A model generated the notes under the pieces. The model was not told where the DNA came from. It did not search any database and saw only the letters and a program-made list of their open reading frames with translations. From Escherichia coli (GTDB lineage Bacteria; Pseudomonadota; Gammaproteobacteria; Enterobacterales; Enterobacteriaceae), in assembly GCF_003790525.1 (NCBI RefSeq), contig NZ_CP033635.1: a stretch of 64,000 nt of DNA, one strand, 5' to 3'. Shown one piece after another: positions 15,086-25,743 of this stretch. Within the stretch, counting starts at the first letter, position 1. Each line of letters starts with the position of its first letter. Both the position numbers and the translations under genes were made by a program.

Positions 15086-16715
15086 TAAATTCCTAAAGTT
15101 GTTTTCTTGCGATTTTGTCTCTCTCTAACCCGCATAAATACTGGTAGCATCTGCATTCAACTGGATAAAATTACAGGGATGCAGAATGAGACACTTTATC
15201 TATCAGGACGAAAAATCACATAAATTCAGGGCAGTTGAGCAACAGGGAAACGAGTTGCATATCAGTTGGGGAAAAGTTGGCACCAAAGGGCAAAGCCAGA
15301 TAAAAAGTTTTTCAGATGCTGCGGCAGCGGCAAAAGCGGAGCTTAAGCTGATTGCGGAGAAGGTGAAGAAGGGGTATGTGGAGCAAGCGAAGGATAATTC
15401 TTTGCAACCTTCCCAAACGGTAACGGGCTCTCTCAAGGTAGCGGACTTATCCACCATTATTCAGGAACAACCCTCTTTCGTAGCAGAAACCCGTGCGCCT
15501 GACAAAAATACAGATGCTGTTTTACCGTGGCTGGCGAAAGATATTGCTGTCGTTTTTCCGCCCGAAGTTGTACACACCACGTTAAGTCATCGCCGCTTTC
15601 CCGGAGTTCCTGTTCAGCAAGCAGACAAATTGCCCCAATTACGTCGCTTAGCCTGTAGTGTGTCGCAACGGGATAATAAAACAGCCACATTTGACTTCAG
15701 CGCCTGTTCTTTAGAATGGCAAAACACCGTCGCCCAGGCGATCAGTCAGATCGACGGCCTGAAAACAACACAGTTACCATCACCAGTAATGGCTGTACTC
15801 ACGGCACTTGAAATGAAATGCACAAGATATAAAGTGCGTGAGGATGTTATGGATCAGATCGTCCAGGAAGGCGGTCTGGAATATGCTACTGATGTAATAA
15901 TACACCTTCAACAGATTGATATTGAATGGGATTATGCGAATAATGTCATTATTATTCTGCCGTCTGGCATTGCACCTAGCTACTTGGAGCAATATTCCAG
16001 ATTTGAATGACGCCTACGTAAACATTTATCACTGACGGAAGAGTCTCTCTGGCAAAAATGTGCACAAAAACTTATTGCCGCAATTCCACATATTCCAGAA
16101 TGGCGGCAACCATTAATTGCTTTGTTATTACCCGAAAAACCAGAAATTGCACATGAAATTGCCCAGCGTCTACTGGGGCAAAAAAAATTACCCTCGCTTG
16201 AGTGGTTAAAAATAGTGGCGACTGATGAGCACATTCTTGCCTCATTAGAAAAATATCACGAACCATATGCCATTTTTGATGATTACTATTGTGGTGCGAT
16301 ATGGTCAGCCACCGTATTACAGGAGCAAGGTGTTGCAGCCCTGCCCCGATTTGCTCCCTATGCCGCAAGTGACTACTGCGCCGATGTGTTGCGTCATATC
16401 AATCATCCGTTCGCATTGACACTGCTTATACGTGTAGCCGGGCAAACTAAACGCTGTCACGATCGGATGACGAAAGCCATTGCTGCGTTCCCACATGCAG
16501 CAATGGCGGCACTGACGGAACTTCTTGGGCAAAAAGAAGAGAACAGTTGGCGCATTATGCTAATGACAATGCTTATCTCACAACCAGCACTGGCAGAACA
16601 GGTCATTCCCTGGCTCTCGACACCCGCAGTTGCCGTACTGAAATCATGCCAGCAACAACTGACACAGCCCTCAAACCATGCCAGCGCCGATCTACTGCCA
16701 GCCGTAGTAGTCTCC

Positions 16716-18054
16716 CATAAGCGCTAACTTAAGGGTTGTGGTATTACGCCTGATATGATTTAACGTGCCGATGAATTACTCTCACGATAACTGGTCAGCA
16801 ATTCTGGCCCATATTGGTAAGCCCGAAGAACTGGATACTTCGGCACGTAATGCCGGGGCTCTAACCCGCCGCCGCGAAATTCGTGATGCTGCAACTCTGC
16901 TACGTCTGGGGCTGGCTTACGGCCCCGGGGGGATGTCATTACGTGAAGTCACTGCATGGGCTCAGCTCCATGACGTTGCAACATTATCTGACGTGGCTCT
17001 CCTGAAGCGGCTGCGGAATGCCGCCGACTGGTTTGGCATACTTGCCGCACAAACACTTGCTGTACGCGCCGCAGTTACGGGTTGTACAAGCGGAAAGAGA
17101 TTGCGTCTTGTCGATGGAACAGCAATCAGTGCGCCCGGGGGCGGCAGCGCTGAATGGCGACTACATATGGGATATGATCCTCATACCTGTCAGTTCACTG
17201 ATTTTGAGCTAACCGACAGCAGAGACGCTGAACGGCTGGACCGATTTGCGCAAACGGCAGACGAGATACGCATTGCTGACCGGGGATTCGGTTCGCGTCC
17301 CGAATGTATCCGCTCACTTGCTTTTGGAGAAGCTGATTATATCGTCCGGGTTCACTGGCGAGGATTGCGCTGGTTAACTGCAGAAGGAATGCGCTTTGAC
17401 ATGATGGGTTTTCTGCGCGGGCTGGATTGCGGTAAGAACGGTGAAACCACTGTAATGATAGGCAATTCAGGTAATAAAAAAGCCGGAGCTCCCTTTCCGG
17501 CACGTCTCATTGCCGTATCACTTCCTCCCGAAAAAGCATTAATCAGTAAAACCCGACTGCTCAGCGAGAATCGTCGAAAAGGACGAGTAGTTCAGGCGGA
17601 AACGCTGGAAGCAGCGGGCCATGTGCTATTGCTAACATCATTACCGGAAGATGAATATTCAGCAGAGCAAGTGGCTGATTGTTACCGTCTGCGATGGCAA
17701 ATTGAACTGGCTTTTAAGCGGCTCAAAAGTTTGCTGCACCTGGATGCTTTGCGTGCAAAGGAACCTGAACTCGCGAAAGCGTGGATATTTGCTAATCTAC
17801 TCGCCGCATTTTTAATTGACGACATAATCCAGCCATCGCTGGATTTCCCCCCCAGAAGTGCCGGATCCGAAAAGAAGAACTAACTCGTTGTGGAGAATAA
17901 CAAAAATGGTCATCTGGAGCTTACAGGTGGCCATTCGTGGGACAGTATCCCTGACAGCCTACAAAACGCAATTGAAGAACGCGAGGCATCGTCTTAACGA
18001 GGCACCGAGGCGTCGCATTCTTCAGATGGTTCAACCCTTAAGTTAGCGCTTATG
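16716..18054 (+). mobile_element. IS186 (IS4 family) insertion sequence, 1339 bp, perfect 23-bp terminal inverted repeats, flanked by a 10-bp target duplication
   Basis: Left end CATAAGCGCTAACTTAAGGGTTG (16716-16738) is the exact inverted complement of the right end (18032-18054); direct repeat AGTAGTCTCC at 16706-16715 and 18055-18064. Confidence 0.85.
16771..17883 (+). CDS. insL: IS186 transposase (DDE, IS4 family)
   Basis: 370-aa product MNYSHDNWSAILAHIGKPEEL... recognised as the IS186 transposase; lies between the terminal inverted repeats. Confidence 0.85.
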   Translation: MNYSHDNWSAILAHIGKPEELDTSARNAGALTRRREIRDAATLLRLGLAYGPGGMSLREVTAWAQLHDVATLSDVALLKRLRNAADWFGILAAQTLAVRAAVTGCTSGKRLRLVDGTAISAPGGGSAEWRLHMGYDPHTCQFTDFELTDSRDAERLDRFAQTADEIRIADRGFGSRPECIRSLAFGEADYIVRVHWRGLRWLTAEGMRFDMMGFLRGLDCGKNGETTVMIGNSGNKKAGAPFPARLIAVSLPPEKALISKTRLLSENRRKGRVVQAETLEAAGHVLLLTSLPEDEYSAEQVADCYRLRWQIELAFKRLKSLLHLDALRAKEPELAKAWIFANLLAAFLIDDIIQPSLDFPPRSAGSEKKN

Positions 18055-20338
18055 AGTAGTCTCCCCTCCCTGGCTTTCGAAAAAGAAAAAATCGCCGATT
18101 CCGGTGCTGGATTTAGCGCCATTAGGCATTGAGCCAATCTGTTATCTGACAGAAGAAATCAGTAATCAACTTTTGGCGAAATATATCTGGTATTCAAAAC
18201 ACATCACGGTTAGCCATGAAGAAAGTACTACCAACCTGTTGGCAAGGATGGGTTTTCAACGACGGATCGCTGGTACATATATTAAAGCTCCCGAAGCGGT
18301 AGTTGAGGCATGGCTAAATGAAGATTATTCAACCTTACTAAGTGAATTTAAGGTGTTTCATTCACCTACCGGGCATTATTGGCAGTTGGGGATTTTGACA
18401 ACATTGCCGCTGGAGAAAGCAGTAAAAGCATGGAATGCCCTTACCCTATCTCCACATACCGATACCGAATACTCCATGTTACATTTTGGACTCAAAGGGT
18501 TACCTGGGTTAGTAAACTCACTTGCACGCTATCCACAAGAAGCCTTGCCCATCACGAATTACTTCGCAGCGAGTGAGCTGGCTCCTGCCGTCGCCCGTGC
18601 CTTCAACAAACTGAAAACGCTACGCGAAAACGCCCGTAGCTGGCTGTTGAAATACCCGGAACATGCCCTTACCGGCCTGCTGCCTGCGGCGCTCGGCAAA
18701 GCCGGTGAAGCACAGGATAACGCCCGCGCTGCCTTGCGTATGCTTACCGAAAACGGTCATCAGCCATTACTGCAAGAAATCGCCCGACGTTATAACCAGC
18801 CGGAAGTAACCGATGCGGTGAACGCTCTGCTTGCGCTCGATCCCTTAGATAATCACCCGACAAAAATCCCCACTCTTCCGGCCTTTTATCAGCCATCGCT
18901 CTGGACGCGCCCGGTATTAAAAGCAAATGCCCAATCACTGCCAGATAGCGCCCTCCTCCACCTCGGTGAAATGCTCCGCTTCCCTCAGGAAGAGGCTCTG
19001 TATCCGGGATTATTGCAGGTGAAAGACGTCTGTTCCGCCGACTCACTGGCGGGATTTGCCTGGGATCTGTTTACCGCCTGGCAGACCGCTGGCGCGCCGT
19101 CGAAAGAGAGTTGGGCGTTCACTGCGTTAGGCGTTCTCGGTAACGATGACACCGCCCGCAAACTGACGCCATTAATACGCGCCTGGCCTGGTGAATCCCA
19201 GCATAAACGCGCCACCGTTGGGTTGGATATTCTCGCTGCTATCGGTAGTGATATCGCCCTTATGCAGCTTAACGGCATCGCCCAGAAACTGAAATTCAAA
19301 GCATTACAGGAGCGGGCAAAAGAAAAAATTGCCGACATTGCCGAGAGCCGCGAACTCACGGTGGCGGAGCTTGAAGATCGGTTAGCACCGGATCTCGGTC
19401 TGGATGATAACGGTTCGCTGCTGCTGGATTTTGGCCCACGGCAGTTCACCGTCAGCTTTGATGAAACCTTAAAACCGTTTGTGCGTGATGTTTCCGGCAG
19501 CCGCCTGAAAGACCTGCCCAAACCGAACAAAAGCGATGATGAAACGCGGGCGAACGATGCGGTTAACCGCTACAAATTGCTGAAAAAAGATGCGCGTACC
19601 ATCGCCGCCCAGCAGGTAGCAAGGCTGGAATCCGCCATGTGCCTGCGCCGCCGCTGGTCGCTGGAAAACTTCCAGCTCTTCCTGGTTGAGCATCCGCTGG
19701 TTCGTCACTTAACCCGCCGTCTGATTTGGGGCGTTTATAGCGCCGAAAACCAGCTACTGGCTTGCTTTCGCGTAGCAGAAGATAACAGCTCCAGCACCGC
19801 TGACGATGATCTTTTCACCCTGCCGGAAGGCGATATCTCTATCGGCACTCCTCACGTTCTGGAAATATCACCAACGGATGCTGCCGCCTTTGGTCAGCTT
19901 TTTGCCGACTACGAACTGCTACCACCGTTCCGCCAGCTCGACCGTAACAGCTACGCCCTGACAGAAGCCGAGCGCAATGCCAGTGAACTGACCCGCTGGG
20001 CAGGCAGAAAATGCCCGAGTGGTCGGGTCATGGGGCTGGCGAATAAAGGCTGGATAAAGGGCGAACCACAGGATGGAGGCTGGATCGGATGGATGATCAA
20101 ACCTTTGGGTCGCTGGTCGTTAATCATGGAAATCGATGAAGGCTTTGCGGTAGGCATGTCGCCAGCCGAACTCAGCGCTGAGCAGCTCTTAAGCAAGCTG
20201 TGGCTATGGGAAGGCAAAGCAGAAAGATATGGCTGGGGGAGTAATTCAACACAGGAAGCGCAGTTCTCCGTAATCGATGCCATCACCGCCAGCGAGCTAA
20301 TTAACGATATTGAAGCCCTGTTTGAATAAGGAAAGAGC

Positions 20339-23300: not shown

Positions 23301-23970
23301 CAAAAACCTGCTCCCGCGTCTTGAAACGGCCCTACGTACCACCCGACGCTGGTCGCTGGCAGATTTTCATTCTCTGTTTGTTAATCATCCCTTTACCCGT
23401 CTGGTTACCCAGCGATTAATATGGGGGGTTTATCCGGCAAATGAACCGCGTTGTTTACTCAAAGCCTTTCGTGTGGCCGCAGAGGGGGAGTTCTGCAATG
23501 CGCAAGATGAGCCAATTGACCTGCCTGCGGACGCTCTGATTGGCATTGCCCACCCGTTAGAAATGACAGCAGAAATGCGCAGTGAATTTGCACAGCTTTT
23601 TGCCGATTACGAAATTATGCCGCCTTTTCGCCAGTTGTCGCGCCGCACGGTGCTGCTCACACCTGACGAGTCAACCAGTAACAGCCTGACTCGCTGGGAA
23701 GGTAAATCCGCTACCGTTGGGCAACTTATGGGAATGCGATACAAAGGCTGGGAGTCAGGCTATGAGGACGCATTTGTCTATAACCTGGGTGAGTACCGGC
23801 TGGTCCTTAAGTTTTCACCCGGTTTTAACCACTACAATGTTGATAGCAAAGCGCTAATGAGCTTCCGTTCTCTTCGAGTGTACCGTGACAATAAATCCGT
23901 CACTTTTGCCGAACTTGATGTGTTTGATTTGAGTGAGGCGTTAAGCGCACCTGACGTCATTTTCCATTAA
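20339..23970 (+). pseudogene. yehI: yehI-like DUF4132 gene split into two overlapping ORFs by a frameshift within 21841-21946
   Basis: ORFs 20339-21946 and 21844-23970 overlap in different frames and together are collinear with the molR paralogue. Confidence 0.65.
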
Positions 23971-24030
23971 AACACAGCGGGCAGTGATGCAACTGCCCGT
24001 TATCAACACGACTTACCAGCGGGGAAAGCG

Positions 24031-24348
24031 ATGATCGTGCAAAAAGAGCTGGTTGCTATTTACGATTATGAGGTCCCTGTACCTGAAGATCCGTTTTCCT
24101 TCAGACTTGAGATCCATAAATGCTCTGAATTATTTACAGGTTCCGTCTATCGACTGGAGCGATTCCGGCTACGTCCAACATTTCATCAACGTGATCGAGA
24201 AGATGCTGACCCGCTAATAAATGATGCGTTGATTTATATAAGAGATGAGTGTATTGATGAGCGGAAATTACGAGGTGAATCACCTGAAACTGTAATAGCA
24301 ATTTTTAATCGTGAACTACAGAATATATTCAACCAAGAAATAGAATAA
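24031..24348 (+). CDS. yehK: small protein of unknown function
   Basis: 105-aa ORF, AT-richer than its neighbours, at the K-12 yehK position. Confidence 0.65.
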   Translation: MIVQKELVAIYDYEVPVPEDPFSFRLEIHKCSELFTGSVYRLERFRLRPTFHQRDREDADPLINDALIYIRDECIDERKLRGESPETVIAIFNRELQNIFNQEIE

Positions 24349-24517
24349 TATACTCTAAATAATTCAAATTGGTCCGATCCGGCGCAACGTCCCAATGGCC
24401 TGGATTATAAATCTCATTATCTTAATTGCAACGGGGTCCAGCCGTGGTTATAATTCGTTCGTTGGAACACGATGTTGCACAGGCTGTGGTGTTAGGCCTG
24501 AAAATAGTAAATAAAAG

Positions 24518-24546
24518 AACCTGCCTCACCAGCAGGTTTTTTTATT
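24518..24546 (+). terminator. intrinsic terminator about 170 nt downstream of yehK
   Basis: Hairpin CCTGC-CTCACCA-GCAGG followed by TTTTTTTATTT. Confidence 0.65.
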
Positions 24547-24654
24547 TACTGTGATCTGCTTTCCAGATATTTTTCGCTCAAACAACTAATGCGCCAAACA
24601 TTTATTGCGCGTAAAATATCGTTTATTTCATTAATACATTTCAGGGATGAATAT

Positions 24655-25743
24655 ATGTCACCGCAGAATAATCATCTGCAGCGTCCGCCTGCTGCTGTGT
24701 TATACGCCGATGAACTGGCAAAATTAAAACAAAATGATAACGCACCTTGCCCGCCCGGTTGGCAGTTAAGTTTGCCTGCGGCCCGTGCTTTTATCCTTGG
24801 CGACGAAGCGCAAAATATCAGCCGTAAAGTGGTGATTAGCCCCTCCGCTGTCGAACGTATGTTAGTCACTCTTGCTACCGGCCGCGGTTTGATGTTGGTG
24901 GGGGAACCGGGTACCGCAAAATCTCTTCTTTCTGAATTACTGGCAACCGCTATTAGCGGCGATGCCGGGTTAACCATCCAGGGCGGGGCATCTACCACCG
25001 AAGATCAAATCAAGTATGGCTGGAACTACGCCCTGCTTATCAATCATGGTCCGTCAACGGAAGCGCTGGTCCCTGCCCCGCTTTATCAGGAAATGCGCGA
25101 CGGCAAAATCGTCCGTTTCGAAGAGATAACGCGTACACCGCTGGAAGTGCAGGACTGTCTGTTAGGTATGCTTTCTGACAGGGTGATGACGGTGCCGGAA
25201 CTCACTGGTGAAGCCAGTCAGCTCTATGCGCGAGAAGGCTTTAATATTATTGCCACTGCCAATACCCGCGATCGCGGCGTCAATGAAATGAGTGCTGCGC
25301 TAAAGCGTCGCTTCGATTTTGAAACGGTTTTTCCGATTATGGATTTCGCCCAGGAGTTGGAACTGGTCGCCAGTGCTTCGGCGCGTTTGCTGGCCCATAG
25401 CGGTATTCCGCATAAAGTGCCTGACGCGGTACTGGAATTACTGGTCCGCACCTTCCGCGATCTGCGTGCCAACGGCGAAAAGAAAACGTCAATGGATACA
25501 CTGACAGCGATTATGTCCACCGCTGAAGCCGTGAACGTGGCCCATGCTGTGGGCGTCCGCGCCTGGTTTTTAGCGAATCGCGCGGGGGAGCCTGCCGACC
25601 TGGTGGAATGTATTGCCGGAACCATCGTCAAAGATAACGAAGAAGATCGCGCGCGTCTGCGCCGTTACTTCGAACAGCGTGTCGCCACACATAAAGAAGC
25701 TCACTGGCAGGCTTATTATCAAGCCCGCCACCGCCTGCCGTGA
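24655..25743 (+). CDS. yehL: MoxR-like AAA+ ATPase
   Basis: 362-aa product from the ATG at 24655; Walker A LMLVGEPGTAKS. Confidence 0.85.
   Translation: MSPQNNHLQRPPAAVLYADELAKLKQNDNAPCPPGWQLSLPAARAFILGDEAQNISRKVVISPSAVERMLVTLATGRGLMLVGEPGTAKSLLSELLATAISGDAGLTIQGGASTTEDQIKYGWNYALLINHGPSTEALVPAPLYQEMRDGKIVRFEEITRTPLEVQDCLLGMLSDRVMTVPELTGEASQLYAREGFNIIATANTRDRGVNEMSAALKRRFDFETVFPIMDFAQELELVASASARLLAHSGIPHKVPDAVLELLVRTFRDLRANGEKKTSMDTLTAIMSTAEAVNVAHAVGVRAWFLANRAGEPADLVECIAGTIVKDNEEDRARLRRYFEQRVATHKEAHWQAYYQARHRLP

What the first reader, a model, noticed from the sequence alone, without database searches (positions are those of the whole stretch)
24349..24546. About 170-nt noncoding segment ending in a strong terminator between yehK and yehL
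yehK stops at 24348 but the only intrinsic terminator (CCTGC-CTCACCA-GCAGG + T7) is at 24518-24546. The intervening sequence has no plausible ORF and contains short self-complementary segments (e.g. GGTCCGATCCGGCGCAACGTCCCAATGGCC). This could be a structured 3' UTR or an independent small RNA sharing the terminator.
Basis: inference. Interest (0 to 1): 0.3.

Follow-up and report, generated by a model that had tools for sequence, protein, structure and literature searches.

The report
Orphan OrzP antitoxin small RNA gene
The stretch between yehK and yehL is the already published leftover of a toxin-antitoxin locus: the toxin genes were deleted and only the small antitoxin RNA gene (orzP, called OrzPmg in E. 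coli K-12) survives with its own promoter and terminator.

Summary
The segment is real and noncoding, but it is not a yehK 3' UTR. Its last ~84 nt (24461-24544, +) are a full-length match to Rfam RF02083, OrzO-P (99.9 bits; threshold 60). They are 100% identical to orzP of E. coli O157:H7 and have their own sigma-70 promoter and intrinsic terminator. The first ~112 nt are DNA-level relics: a TTCAA deletion junction, the first 29 nt of the zorP toxin 5' UTR on the minus strand, and the divergent zorP promoter. This part folds no better than shuffled sequence.

The toxin ORF and the Orz pairing site are gone. The yehK-yehL region is base-for-base E. coli K-12 MG1655. A 2024 mSystems paper (PMC11264685) already described this "orz-only" locus, named the RNA OrzPmg and detected it by northern blot. 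Published Term-seq places a 3' end at window 24544.

My counts agree: 1838 of 5426 complete genomes carry this junction and 3398 carry zor.

One small addition: a single genome (Z1323CEC0014) holds a tandem zorO-orzO-zorP-orzP haplotype. Removing 933 bp between two TTCAA repeats from it reproduces the window (3 mismatches in 2106 bp).

What the orphan RNA does remains open. Verdict: already known, low interest.

The parts
24031..24348 (+). yehK coding sequence (context; upstream neighbour)
   Evidence: ORF list. Identical to K-12 b4541.
24349..24362 (.). yehK-proximal spacer kept to the left of the deletion
   Evidence: Collinear with the left flank of intact loci (...CTCTAAATAA in L013).
24363..24367 (.). 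TTCAA: the surviving copy of the 5-bp direct repeat at the deletion junction
   Evidence: In L013, TTCAA occurs at 1528 and 2461. Deleting the 933 bp between the two copies reproduces the window. The 40-nt junction is found in 1838 of 5426 genomes.
24368..24396 (-). Fossil of the zorP toxin mRNA: the first 29 nt of its 5' UTR (+1 = 24396)
   Evidence: Alignment to the O157:H7 and L013 zorP leaders. The +1 position is placed from the 174-nt UTR (AUG at +175). PMC11264685 reports that 27-29 nt are retained.
24404..24409 (-). -10 hexamer (TATAAT on the minus strand) of the fossil zorP promoter
   Evidence: Promoter scan: TTGCAA-16-TATAAT, 10 of 12 matches. Identical to the promoter of the intact zorP copy in L013.
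24426..24431 (.). Palindromic TTGCAA: a -35 hexamer shared by the divergent zorP and orzP promoters
   Evidence: The same hexamer is called as -35 on both strands.
24449..24454 (+). -10 hexamer TATAAT of the orzP promoter
   Evidence: Promoter scan: TTGCAA-17-TATAAT. 100% identical to O157:H7 orzP upstream DNA.
24461..24544 (+). OrzP (OrzPmg) antitoxin small RNA, about 84 nt
   Evidence: Rfam RF02083: 99.9 bits, model positions 1-76 match 24468-24543. The 5' end is inferred from -10 spacing and the start of the pairing region. The 3' end at 24544 comes from Term-seq. Northern blots show ~85 nt (Fozo 2010) and detection in MG1655. Folding z = -3.59.
24461..24480 (+). 5' target-pairing region of OrzP; specificity triplet V1 = ACG at 24469-24471
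   Evidence: Direct-repeat relation to the zorP leader in intact loci. V1 is ACG in OrzP and GAA in OrzO (Wen 2014). Duplex with L013 zorP mRNA at +59..+103: -55.4 kcal/mol, against a null of -31.6 +/- 4.8.
24510..24546 (+). Intrinsic terminator: G+C core hairpin 24518-24538, U7 at 24537-24543, A/U-extended stem
   Evidence: Fold. Rfam consensus stem. Nearly invariant in 11 Orz sequences (9 identical over this span; single substitutions in L007 and the first L009 copy). Term-seq 3' end. Also scored as a minus-strand terminator.
24655..25743 (+). yehL (MoxR-type AAA+ ATPase; context; downstream neighbour)
   Evidence: K-12 annotation b2119 mapped with an offset of 2179941. ORF list.

Best explanation
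Window 24349-24546 is the 'orz-only' form of the Escherichia zor-orz type I toxin-antitoxin locus, identical to the locus in E. coli K-12 MG1655.

Anatomy:
- An independent sRNA gene, orzP (OrzPmg), lies at ~24461-24544 on the plus strand.
- It is transcribed from its own sigma-70 promoter: -35 TTGCAA at 24426-24431 and -10 TATAAT at 24449-24454.
- It ends at the intrinsic terminator at 24518-24543.
- Upstream lies a fossil of the divergent toxin gene on the minus strand. The fossil comprises the zorP promoter (-10 at 24409-24404, sharing the palindromic -35) and only the first 29 nt of the zorP 5' UTR (24396-24368).
- The fossil abuts a TTCAA deletion junction 15 nt after the yehK stop codon.

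Origin (inferred from a reconstruction): one 933-bp deletion between two TTCAA direct repeats in a tandem zorO-orzO-zorP-orzP ancestor. It removed both toxin ORFs, orzO and the Orz-binding site of zorP.

Mechanism in intact loci (shown for OrzO/zorO in the literature, inferred for OrzP): the single-stranded 5' ~20 nt of Orz pair with the toxin leader at about +83..+102. This is the 'exposed after processing' standby region. Pairing blocks translation and triggers RNase III-dependent decay, and does not need Hfq.

In this genome the RNA is still made, but it has no cognate target in cis. No toxin gene is detectable in the window. Its most likely status is an expressed relic that is idle unless a zorP gene enters the cell. 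That last step is inference.
For: Identity of the sRNA:
- Rfam RF02083 matches full length at 99.9 bits, against a gathering score of 60.
- Positions 24402-24546 are 100% identical to O157:H7 orzP and its promoter.
- Divergent promoters are found on both strands.
- The sRNA folds with z = -3.59.

Loss of the toxin:
- No ZorO-like ORF occurs in any frame of the 64-kb window.
- No site complementary to OrzP nt 1-20 with 3 or fewer mismatches exists apart from its own gene.

Identity with K-12:
- Window 24031-24660 is an exact substring of MG1655.

Literature:
- PMC11264685 describes orz-only loci in ~30% of genomes with 27-29 nt of zor UTR retained. It names OrzPmg and shows a northern blot in MG1655 against a deletion strain.
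- Term-seq places a 3' end at window 24544.
- The sRNAs are ~85 nt.
- Repression is RNase III-dependent and Hfq-independent, and V1 sets specificity.
- The UTR is 174 nt, is processed by removal of 28 nt, and has an EAP region at +73..+102.

Population counts:
- The junction occurs in 1838 of 5426 genomes and zor DNA in 3398. The sum is 5236, equal to all genomes with any match.

Origin:
- The in-silico 933-bp TTCAA-TTCAA deletion of L013 matches the window with 3 mismatches in 2106 bp and none in the intergenic region.
- Intact loci occur in E. whittamii and another Escherichia species, so the intact state is ancestral.
- The OrzP x zorP duplex is -55.4 kcal/mol at +59..+103, against a null of -31.6 +/- 4.8.
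Against: - The 5' end of the sRNA (24461) is inferred from promoter spacing and the pairing region. I could not read the primer-extension figure or the dRNA-seq tables.
- OrzP-zorP repression has not itself been shown. The experiments used OrzO-zorO, and OrzP does not repress zorO.
- 'Idle relic' is not proven. The RNA is still expressed, and its promoter and pairing region were unchanged in all 10 variant orz-only haplotypes sampled. The 2024 authors raise a toxin-independent role.
- I could search only 64 kb of this genome for targets.
- The pre-deletion haplotype exists in only 1 of 5426 genomes, so a recombinant or assembly artefact cannot be fully excluded.
- A second orz-only type (AST215: orphan orzO plus an intact pair) has a junction at the homologous position. 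Deletions there may therefore recur.
Confidence: 0.85

Rival explanations
1. The orphan OrzP is kept because it still does something without its toxin. It might neutralise zorP genes that arrive by recombination or on plasmids (anti-addiction immunity). Or it might act in trans on other mRNAs through its free 5' end.
For: - The RNA is expressed in MG1655.
- The promoter and sRNA are 100% identical to O157:H7 orzP, so it would pair with incoming zorP.
- 0 of 20 pairing-region positions varied among 10 variant orz-only haplotypes.
- The orz-only state is common, at 34% of genomes.
- zor-orz copies do occur on plasmids: 4 places, and one plasmid is reported.
- The 2024 authors raise this possibility.
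Against: - Variant-site density in OrzP (5 of 86) is no lower than in the flanking noncoding DNA (2 of 48, 3 of 64, 3 of 108).
- One haplotype carries a 1-nt deletion in the terminator stem.
- High identity is expected anyway if the deletion is young. Half of the orz-only genomes are identical across the whole spacer.
- No complementary site was found in the window, and neighbouring mRNAs give duplex energies within the null.
- No phenotype has been published.
Confidence: 0.2
2. The segment is a structured 3' UTR of yehK, or a 3'-UTR-derived sRNA cut from the yehK transcript.
For: - yehK has no terminator of its own before 24518. Read-through from yehK would therefore end at the same hairpin and contain the OrzP sequence.
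Against: - A near-consensus promoter sits directly upstream of the sRNA.
- The sRNA belongs to a family with mapped independent transcription starts.
- The same sRNA with the same promoter is found about 1 kb from yehK in tandem loci.
- Positions 24349-24460 have no structure beyond chance.
- Term-seq classes the 3' end as 'orphan'.
Confidence: 0.03
3. The K-12-type locus did not arise by one TTCAA-TTCAA deletion. It arose either by repeated independent deletions at a hotspot or by deletion of zorO followed by collapse of the tandem repeat. On this view Z1323CEC0014 is a secondary recombinant.
For: - AST215 has a deletion junction at the homologous position of the zorO copy and still keeps an intact downstream pair.
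- The putative ancestral haplotype is seen in only 1 of 5426 genomes.
Against: - Re-insertion by homologous recombination would need both crossovers within about 10 nt of the junction to keep A24358, C24365 and the bases 24396T, 24399C and 24401T. All of these are present in L013.
- 1827 of 1838 junctions are at least 99% identical.
- The reconstruction leaves 0 mismatches in the intergenic region.
Confidence: 0.15
4. The segment encodes a small protein, for example the 39-aa ORF at 24395-24514 with a hydrophobic N-terminus.
For: An ATG-initiated ORF is present.
Against: - It has no family match.
- No Shine-Dalgarno sequence is visible upstream.
- Its ATG depends on T24396, which is C in other orz-only haplotypes and in O157:H7.
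- It starts upstream of the orzP transcription start and overlaps the sRNA.
Confidence: 0.01

Closest known systems
OrzP of the zorP-orzP pair in E. coli O157:H7 EDL933 (Rfam RF02083), and its K-12 copy OrzPmg (PMC11264685)
   Same: The sRNA and its promoter have identical sequence. The position is the same, next to yehL. The terminator, the V1 triplet ACG and the ~85-nt size all match. The yehK-yehL stretch of the window (24031-24660) is base-for-base the MG1655 sequence.
   Different: Compared with O157:H7, the cognate zorP toxin ORF and pairing site, and the whole zorO-orzO pair, are absent. Compared with OrzPmg there is no difference.
OrzO-zorO, the experimentally characterised paralogue (Wen 2014, Wen 2017)
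   Same: Same family, same divergent arrangement, same 5'-end pairing to the toxin leader, same terminator.
   Different: The V1 triplet is GAA rather than ACG, and the middle region differs (18 of 84 positions). OrzP does not repress zorO.
IstR-1/tisB and OhsC/shoB type I systems of E. coli
   Same: The antitoxin sRNA is encoded divergently from the toxin, not antisense to it. It pairs with a short stretch of a long, processed 5' UTR that serves as a ribosome standby site.
   Different: The sequences are unrelated. In K-12 those toxins are still present, so the antitoxins are not orphans.
Zorya (ZorABCD) anti-phage defence system
   Same: Only the three letters 'Zor'.
   Different: Unrelated. 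Zorya is a multi-protein membrane complex. zor-orz is a 29-aa peptide plus an sRNA. This statement rests on my own knowledge and was not tested here.

Membership tests
OrzO-P antitoxin sRNA (Rfam RF02083) | Sequence and structure match to the family covariance model above its gathering score | tested here: met
   99.9 bits against a gathering score of 60. E = 7.5e-17. Model positions 1-76 match window 24468-24543.
OrzO-P antitoxin sRNA (Rfam RF02083) | Own sigma-70 promoter, oriented divergently from a zor promoter | tested here: met
   TTGCAA-17-TATAAT on the plus strand and TTGCAA-16-TATAAT on the minus strand, sharing one hexamer. Identical to O157:H7.
OrzO-P antitoxin sRNA (Rfam RF02083) | Rho-independent terminator giving an RNA of about 85 nt | tested here: met
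   Hairpin plus U7. Term-seq 3' end at 24544. Reported size ~85 nt.
OrzO-P antitoxin sRNA (Rfam RF02083) | 5' region complementary to the leader of a neighbouring zor mRNA | tested here: not met
   The pairing region is intact (24461-24480), but the complementary site is deleted. The only match in 64 kb is the gene itself. The site is present at +83..+102 in the pre-deletion haplotype. This unmet feature concerns the locus, not the RNA's family membership.
OrzO-P antitoxin sRNA (Rfam RF02083) | The RNA is actually expressed | not testable with these tools
   Literature only: a northern blot in MG1655 against the orzPmg deletion and Term-seq.
Complete type I toxin-antitoxin system (zor-orz) | A 29-aa hydrophobic Zor toxin ORF with a ~174-nt leader | tested here: not met
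   No ZorO-like ORF in any of the six frames of the window, allowing up to 6 substitutions in the 22-aa core. Only 29 nt of the leader remain.
Complete type I toxin-antitoxin system (zor-orz) | A cognate antitoxin sRNA | tested here: met
3' UTR-derived or structured 3' UTR element of yehK | No promoter of its own; the RNA is made from the upstream mRNA | tested here: not met
   A near-consensus promoter lies 7 nt upstream of the sRNA 5' end. The same unit occurs far from yehK in tandem loci.
3' UTR-derived or structured 3' UTR element of yehK | Stable structure across the whole 170-nt segment | tested here: not met
   Positions 24349-24460 fold with z = +1.19. Only the sRNA part is structured.
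Hfq-dependent trans-acting sRNA | Hfq binding and Hfq-dependent regulation | not testable with these tools
   OrzO represses zorO in an hfq deletion strain (Wen 2014). The RIL-seq supplements are not held.

The most novel reading that the evidence does not exclude
The orphan OrzP is not a dead relic. It could be maintained as immunity against zorP genes arriving by recombination or on plasmids, or it could have trans targets of its own. In addition, the intact fossil zorP promoter has lost its terminator and may now drive an antisense transcript across yehK. None of these readings is excluded by my data, and none is supported beyond expression of the RNA and conservation of the promoters.
Probability: 0.15. 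Interest if true: 0.5.

Novelty: already known. Interest (0 to 1): 0.15.

Why it matters
As a discovery it matters little. The sRNA family has been known since 2010, and the K-12 orphan copy (OrzPmg) was described and detected in 2024.

It is still useful for annotation. RefSeq K-12 and the other genomes I inspected list nothing between yehK and yehL, so the region looks empty although it holds an expressed sRNA gene.

The open question is whether a type I antitoxin can have a life without its toxin. It is testable here because a third of E. coli genomes are natural toxin-deletion mutants.

The reconstruction of the deletion gives a defined ancestral and derived pair for such tests. It is a 933-bp loss between TTCAA repeats, with one surviving pre-deletion haplotype.

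Tried and rejected
- **Post-deletion decay at the zor start site: rejected.** I first read the K-12-specific bases 24396T, 24399C and 24401T as decay after the deletion. The same bases occur in the intact zorP copy of Z1323CEC0014.
- **Test for purifying selection on orphan OrzP: inconclusive.** I sampled 10 variant orz-only haplotypes. The sample is small and the allele is young. OrzP has 5 variant sites in 86 nt, no fewer than its flanks.
- **Covariation support for the Orz structure: none obtainable.** The terminator shows only two single-nucleotide variants among 11 sequences and no covarying pair, and the middle region is not structurally conserved.
- **Trans-target scan of the whole 64-kb window with duplexfold plus shuffles: timed out**. 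I replaced it with a mismatch search and local duplex tests against a random-piece null.
- **Antisense transcript from the fossil zorP promoter: no evidence either way.** No minus-strand Term-seq 3' ends are listed for K-12 2203800-2204299.
- **Data I could not reach.** The dRNA-seq tables (Thomason 2015) and the RIL-seq supplements (Melamed 2016, 2020) are not held.
- **Weak Rfam hits: dismissed.** The Thr, Trp and Phe leader, STnc370 and minus-strand OrzO-P hits all align only to the terminator hairpin and fall below their gathering scores.
- **39-aa ORF: rejected**.

Full report
**Observation.** yehK is the ORF 24031-24348 and yehL starts at 24655. The spacer is therefore 306 nt, as in K-12. 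It can be extended to AACCTGC/GCAGGTT at 24518-24538. The simple scan reports it only on the minus strand, because the flanking A- and T-runs lengthen the stem. No other plus-strand terminator-like site lies in the spacer.

One sub-claim does not hold. The upstream 112 nt (24349-24460), which contain the quoted 'self-complementary' stretch, fold no better than shuffles (z = +1.19; 175 of 200 shuffles fold at least as well). The last 86 nt fold at -28.3 kcal/mol with z = -3.59.

**What it is.** A scan of 23500-25500 against Rfam gave a full-length match to RF02083 at 24468-24543 on the plus strand: 99.9 bits against a gathering score of 60, E = 7.5e-17. RF02083 is the OrzO-P RNA antitoxin family. 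All other hits were below threshold and aligned only to the terminator.

Directly upstream is a near-consensus promoter, TTGCAA-17-TATAAT at 24426-24454. A second promoter, TTGCAA-16-TATAAT, runs the other way at 24431-24404. The two share the palindromic hexamer TTGCAA as -35.

In E. coli O157:H7 the same yehK-yehL spacer is 1.2 kb. It holds two tandem modules:
- zorO, a 29-aa ORF (MDTLTQKLTVLIAVLELLVALLRLIDLLK), on the minus strand with orzO on the plus strand;
- zorP on the minus strand with orzP on the plus strand.

Alignment shows that window 24402-24546 is 100% identical to the O157:H7 orzP promoter and gene. The specificity triplet V1 is ACG at 24469-24471, the OrzP type.

To the left, homology to the zorP leader continues only to 24368. 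This is 29 nt counted from the transcription start equivalent at 24396, which I placed using the published 174-nt leader. The sequence then jumps to the DNA that follows the yehK stop codon. The toxin ORF, its terminator, the Orz-binding site and the whole zorO-orzO module are missing.

No ZorO-like ORF exists in any frame of the 64-kb window. The only sequence complementary to OrzP nt 1-20 with 3 or fewer mismatches is the gene's own opposite strand.

**Already published.** Window 24031-24660 is an exact substring of MG1655. Elsewhere the window differs from MG1655 by 0.27% and by an IS insertion.

Fozo et al. 2010 found the two ~85-nt sRNAs in EDL933 and stated that the locus is absent from MG1655. 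Wen et al. 2014 repeated that statement.

The 2024 mSystems paper PMC11264685 corrected it:
- about 30% of 2212 E. coli assemblies are 'orz-only';
- they keep 27-29 nt of the zor 5' UTR;
- 96% of them are orzP-like;
- the MG1655 copy is 100% identical to EDL933 orzP;
- the authors named it OrzPmg and detected it by northern blot in MG1655 but not in a deletion strain.

Term-seq data for MG1655 (Adams 2021, supplementary files) list 'orphan' plus-strand 3' ends at two positions. With an offset of 2179941, 2204485 maps to window 24544, right after the U7 tract. The other, 2204446, maps to window 24505, inside the sRNA.

RefSeq annotates nothing in this spacer in K-12 or in the other genomes I inspected.

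**Independent population check.** I searched 5426 complete E. coli genomes.
- A 40-nt query centred on the junction (24348-24387) hits 1838 genomes. Each has one chromosomal place, and 1827 are at least 99% identical.
- A 276-nt query for the zorP ORF plus leader hits 3398 genomes, with a median of 2 and a maximum of 4 places.
- The two classes sum to 5236. That is exactly the number of genomes with any match to window 24300-24660.
- This leaves 190 genomes (3.5%) with neither.

These fractions (34%, 63%, 3.5%) agree with the paper's figures of about 30%, 67% and 3%.

Outside E. coli, the conserved 3' half of orz matched two species representatives exactly: E. whittamii with two pairs and Escherichia sp. 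MOD1-EC7003 with one pair. All had intact ZorO ORFs. The intact state is therefore ancestral and the orz-only state is derived.

**How the orphan arose (a new detail).** Intact loci usually read ...CTCTAGATAATTCAAGTCGC... after yehK and ...GGACTT(G/A)AAAT... in the zor leader. The window has A at 24358 and TTCAA at the junction.

A search for an intact left flank carrying that A found 6 genomes. One of them is strain Z1323CEC0014 (NZ_CP148426.1, locus L013). It carries a tandem zorO-orzO-zorP-orzP locus whose zorP leader reads GGACTTCAAATTGGTCC... It also contains the K-12-specific bases 24396T, 24399C and 24401T.

Deleting in silico the 933 bp between its two TTCAA copies (L013 1528 and 2461) gives a sequence with only 3 mismatches to the window over 2106 bp. 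None of the mismatches is in the intergenic region. This leader variant is unique among the 5426 genomes.

The simplest reading is a single deletion between 5-bp direct repeats that removed zorO, orzO and zorP at once. On this reading Z1323CEC0014 is a rare survivor of the ancestral haplotype.

The main text of the 2024 paper does not mention direct repeats or microhomology at the junction.

A caution: strain AST215 has a junction at the homologous position of the zorO copy and keeps an intact downstream pair. Deletions here may therefore recur.

**Mechanism.** The following steps are shown in the literature for OrzO/zorO:
- the sRNA's 5' end pairs with about 18 nt of the toxin leader;
- repression needs RNase III and does not need Hfq;
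- the V1 triplet sets specificity, and OrzP does not repress zorO;
- the leader is processed by removal of its first 28 nt, which opens the +73..+102 'EAP' standby region where Orz binds.

The following is inferred for OrzP. In the pre-deletion haplotype, OrzP nt 1-43 form a duplex with zorP mRNA +59..+103 at -55.4 kcal/mol. Random 200-nt pieces of the window give -31.6 +/- 4.8, with a minimum of -45.4.

The same pairing is supported by matched variation between leader and sRNA in the O, P and Q types (GGTACGAAA, GGA(C/A)CACGA and G(A/G)G(T/G)CGCCA).

In the window the partner is gone. The putative fossil-promoter transcript, yehK mRNA and the yehL 5' region all give energies within the null. 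I therefore take OrzP here to be an expressed antitoxin without a resident target.

**Is the orphan under selection?** A spread sample of 60 ranked hits showed 21 orz-only genomes. Eleven of them were identical to the window over 24331-24654.

In 10 variant haplotypes that I fetched, distinct variant sites were distributed as follows:
- 5 of 86 in OrzP, with none in the 20-nt pairing region;
- 2 of 48 in the junction and leader remnant;
- 3 of 64 in the promoter region;
- 3 of 108 in the downstream spacer.

One haplotype has a 1-nt deletion in the terminator stem. No extra constraint on the sRNA is visible, but the sample is small and the allele is young, so the test is inconclusive.

No covariation is available either: the terminator shows only two single-nucleotide variants across 11 Orz sequences, and no predicted pair covaries.

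**Verdict.** 'Structured 3' UTR' is not supported. The feature is the known OrzPmg/orzP orphan antitoxin. Novelty is 'already known' and interest is low. The remaining open question is whether the orphan RNA has a toxin-independent role, and whether the terminator-less fossil zorP promoter now reads antisense into yehK. My tools could not decide either point. No minus-strand Term-seq ends are listed there, and the dRNA-seq and RIL-seq tables are not held.

Noticed in passing
window 16717-18054 (flanks 16706-16716 and 18055-18065): A 1338-bp IS4-family insertion sequence sits inside the yehH pseudogene relative to K-12 MG1655. From memory it looks like IS186. It encodes a 372-aa transposase at 16765-17883 (NF033592, 133 bits). 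Its terminal inverted repeats are CATAAGCGCTAACTTAAGGGTTG, and it is flanked by an 11-bp target duplication AGTAGTCTCCC. Outside it, the window is 99.73% identical to MG1655 over 14 kb, so the source is a close relative of MG1655 and not MG1655 itself.
   Followed up: partly
window 24426-24431: TTGCAA is its own reverse complement. It is called as the -35 hexamer of both divergent promoters (orzP and fossil zorP), so the two promoters share one hexamer.
   Followed up: no
window 24363-24396 (minus strand, zorP leader +1..+34): The DNA deletion ends at leader position +29 (or +30..+34 if the repeat is counted). This is right next to the RNA processing site that removes the first 28 nt of the zorO leader (Wen 2017). 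What survives is therefore almost exactly the piece that is normally clipped off. This is probably coincidence, since both sites lie in an A/U-rich stretch.
   Followed up: partly
window 24404-24431 and leftwards to about 23978 (minus strand): The fossil zorP promoter is identical to that of an intact zorP copy (L013), but its terminator has been deleted. If it fires, transcription would run antisense across all of yehK. The next minus-strand terminator-like hairpin is at 23999-23978. No minus-strand Term-seq 3' ends are listed for this stretch.
   Followed up: partly
window 24505: Published Term-seq lists a second plus-strand 3' end inside OrzP, at K-12 2204446. It would give a ~45-nt 5' fragment carrying the pairing region. 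It could be a processing or decay product.
   Followed up: no
L009 (NZ_AP043621.1, strain AST215) 332-1245: This strain has a '1.5-copy' arrangement: yehK, then the same kind of junction, then an orphan orzO, then an intact zor/orzP pair. The first-copy toxin was lost at the position homologous to the window's junction.
   Followed up: partly
L002 1050-1140 and L003 1050-1220 (between yehK and zor in strains Br_54_kylling and N53): Extra repeat-like DNA, absent from the window, lies between yehK and the zor terminator. It contains ...CCCCAGGAGCTTACTAAAGTAAGTGACAGGGGTGAACGA..., which from memory resembles an ERIC/IRU element. Not tested.
   Followed up: no
L001-L003, L005, L006, L009 (yeh cluster in other strains): Several genes of the yehI-yehK-yehL-yehM cluster are annotated as pseudogenes in different strains. 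yehK is frameshifted or has an internal stop in Br_54_kylling, N53 and AST215. yehI is a pseudogene in WCHEC020032 and UID2404240040. yehM has an internal stop in an O157:H7 strain.
   Followed up: no
window 24395-24514 (+): This 39-aa ORF (MAWIINLIILIATGSS...) has a hydrophobic start. Its ATG exists only because of T24396, which is C in other orz-only haplotypes and in O157:H7. It has no family match.
   Followed up: yes
L021 (NZ_AP045781.1, strain 23CRST022): This orz-only allele has 1-nt deletions in the A-run (24501) and in the 3' arm of the terminator stem (24535). It may be an example of the orphan gene starting to decay.
   Followed up: no
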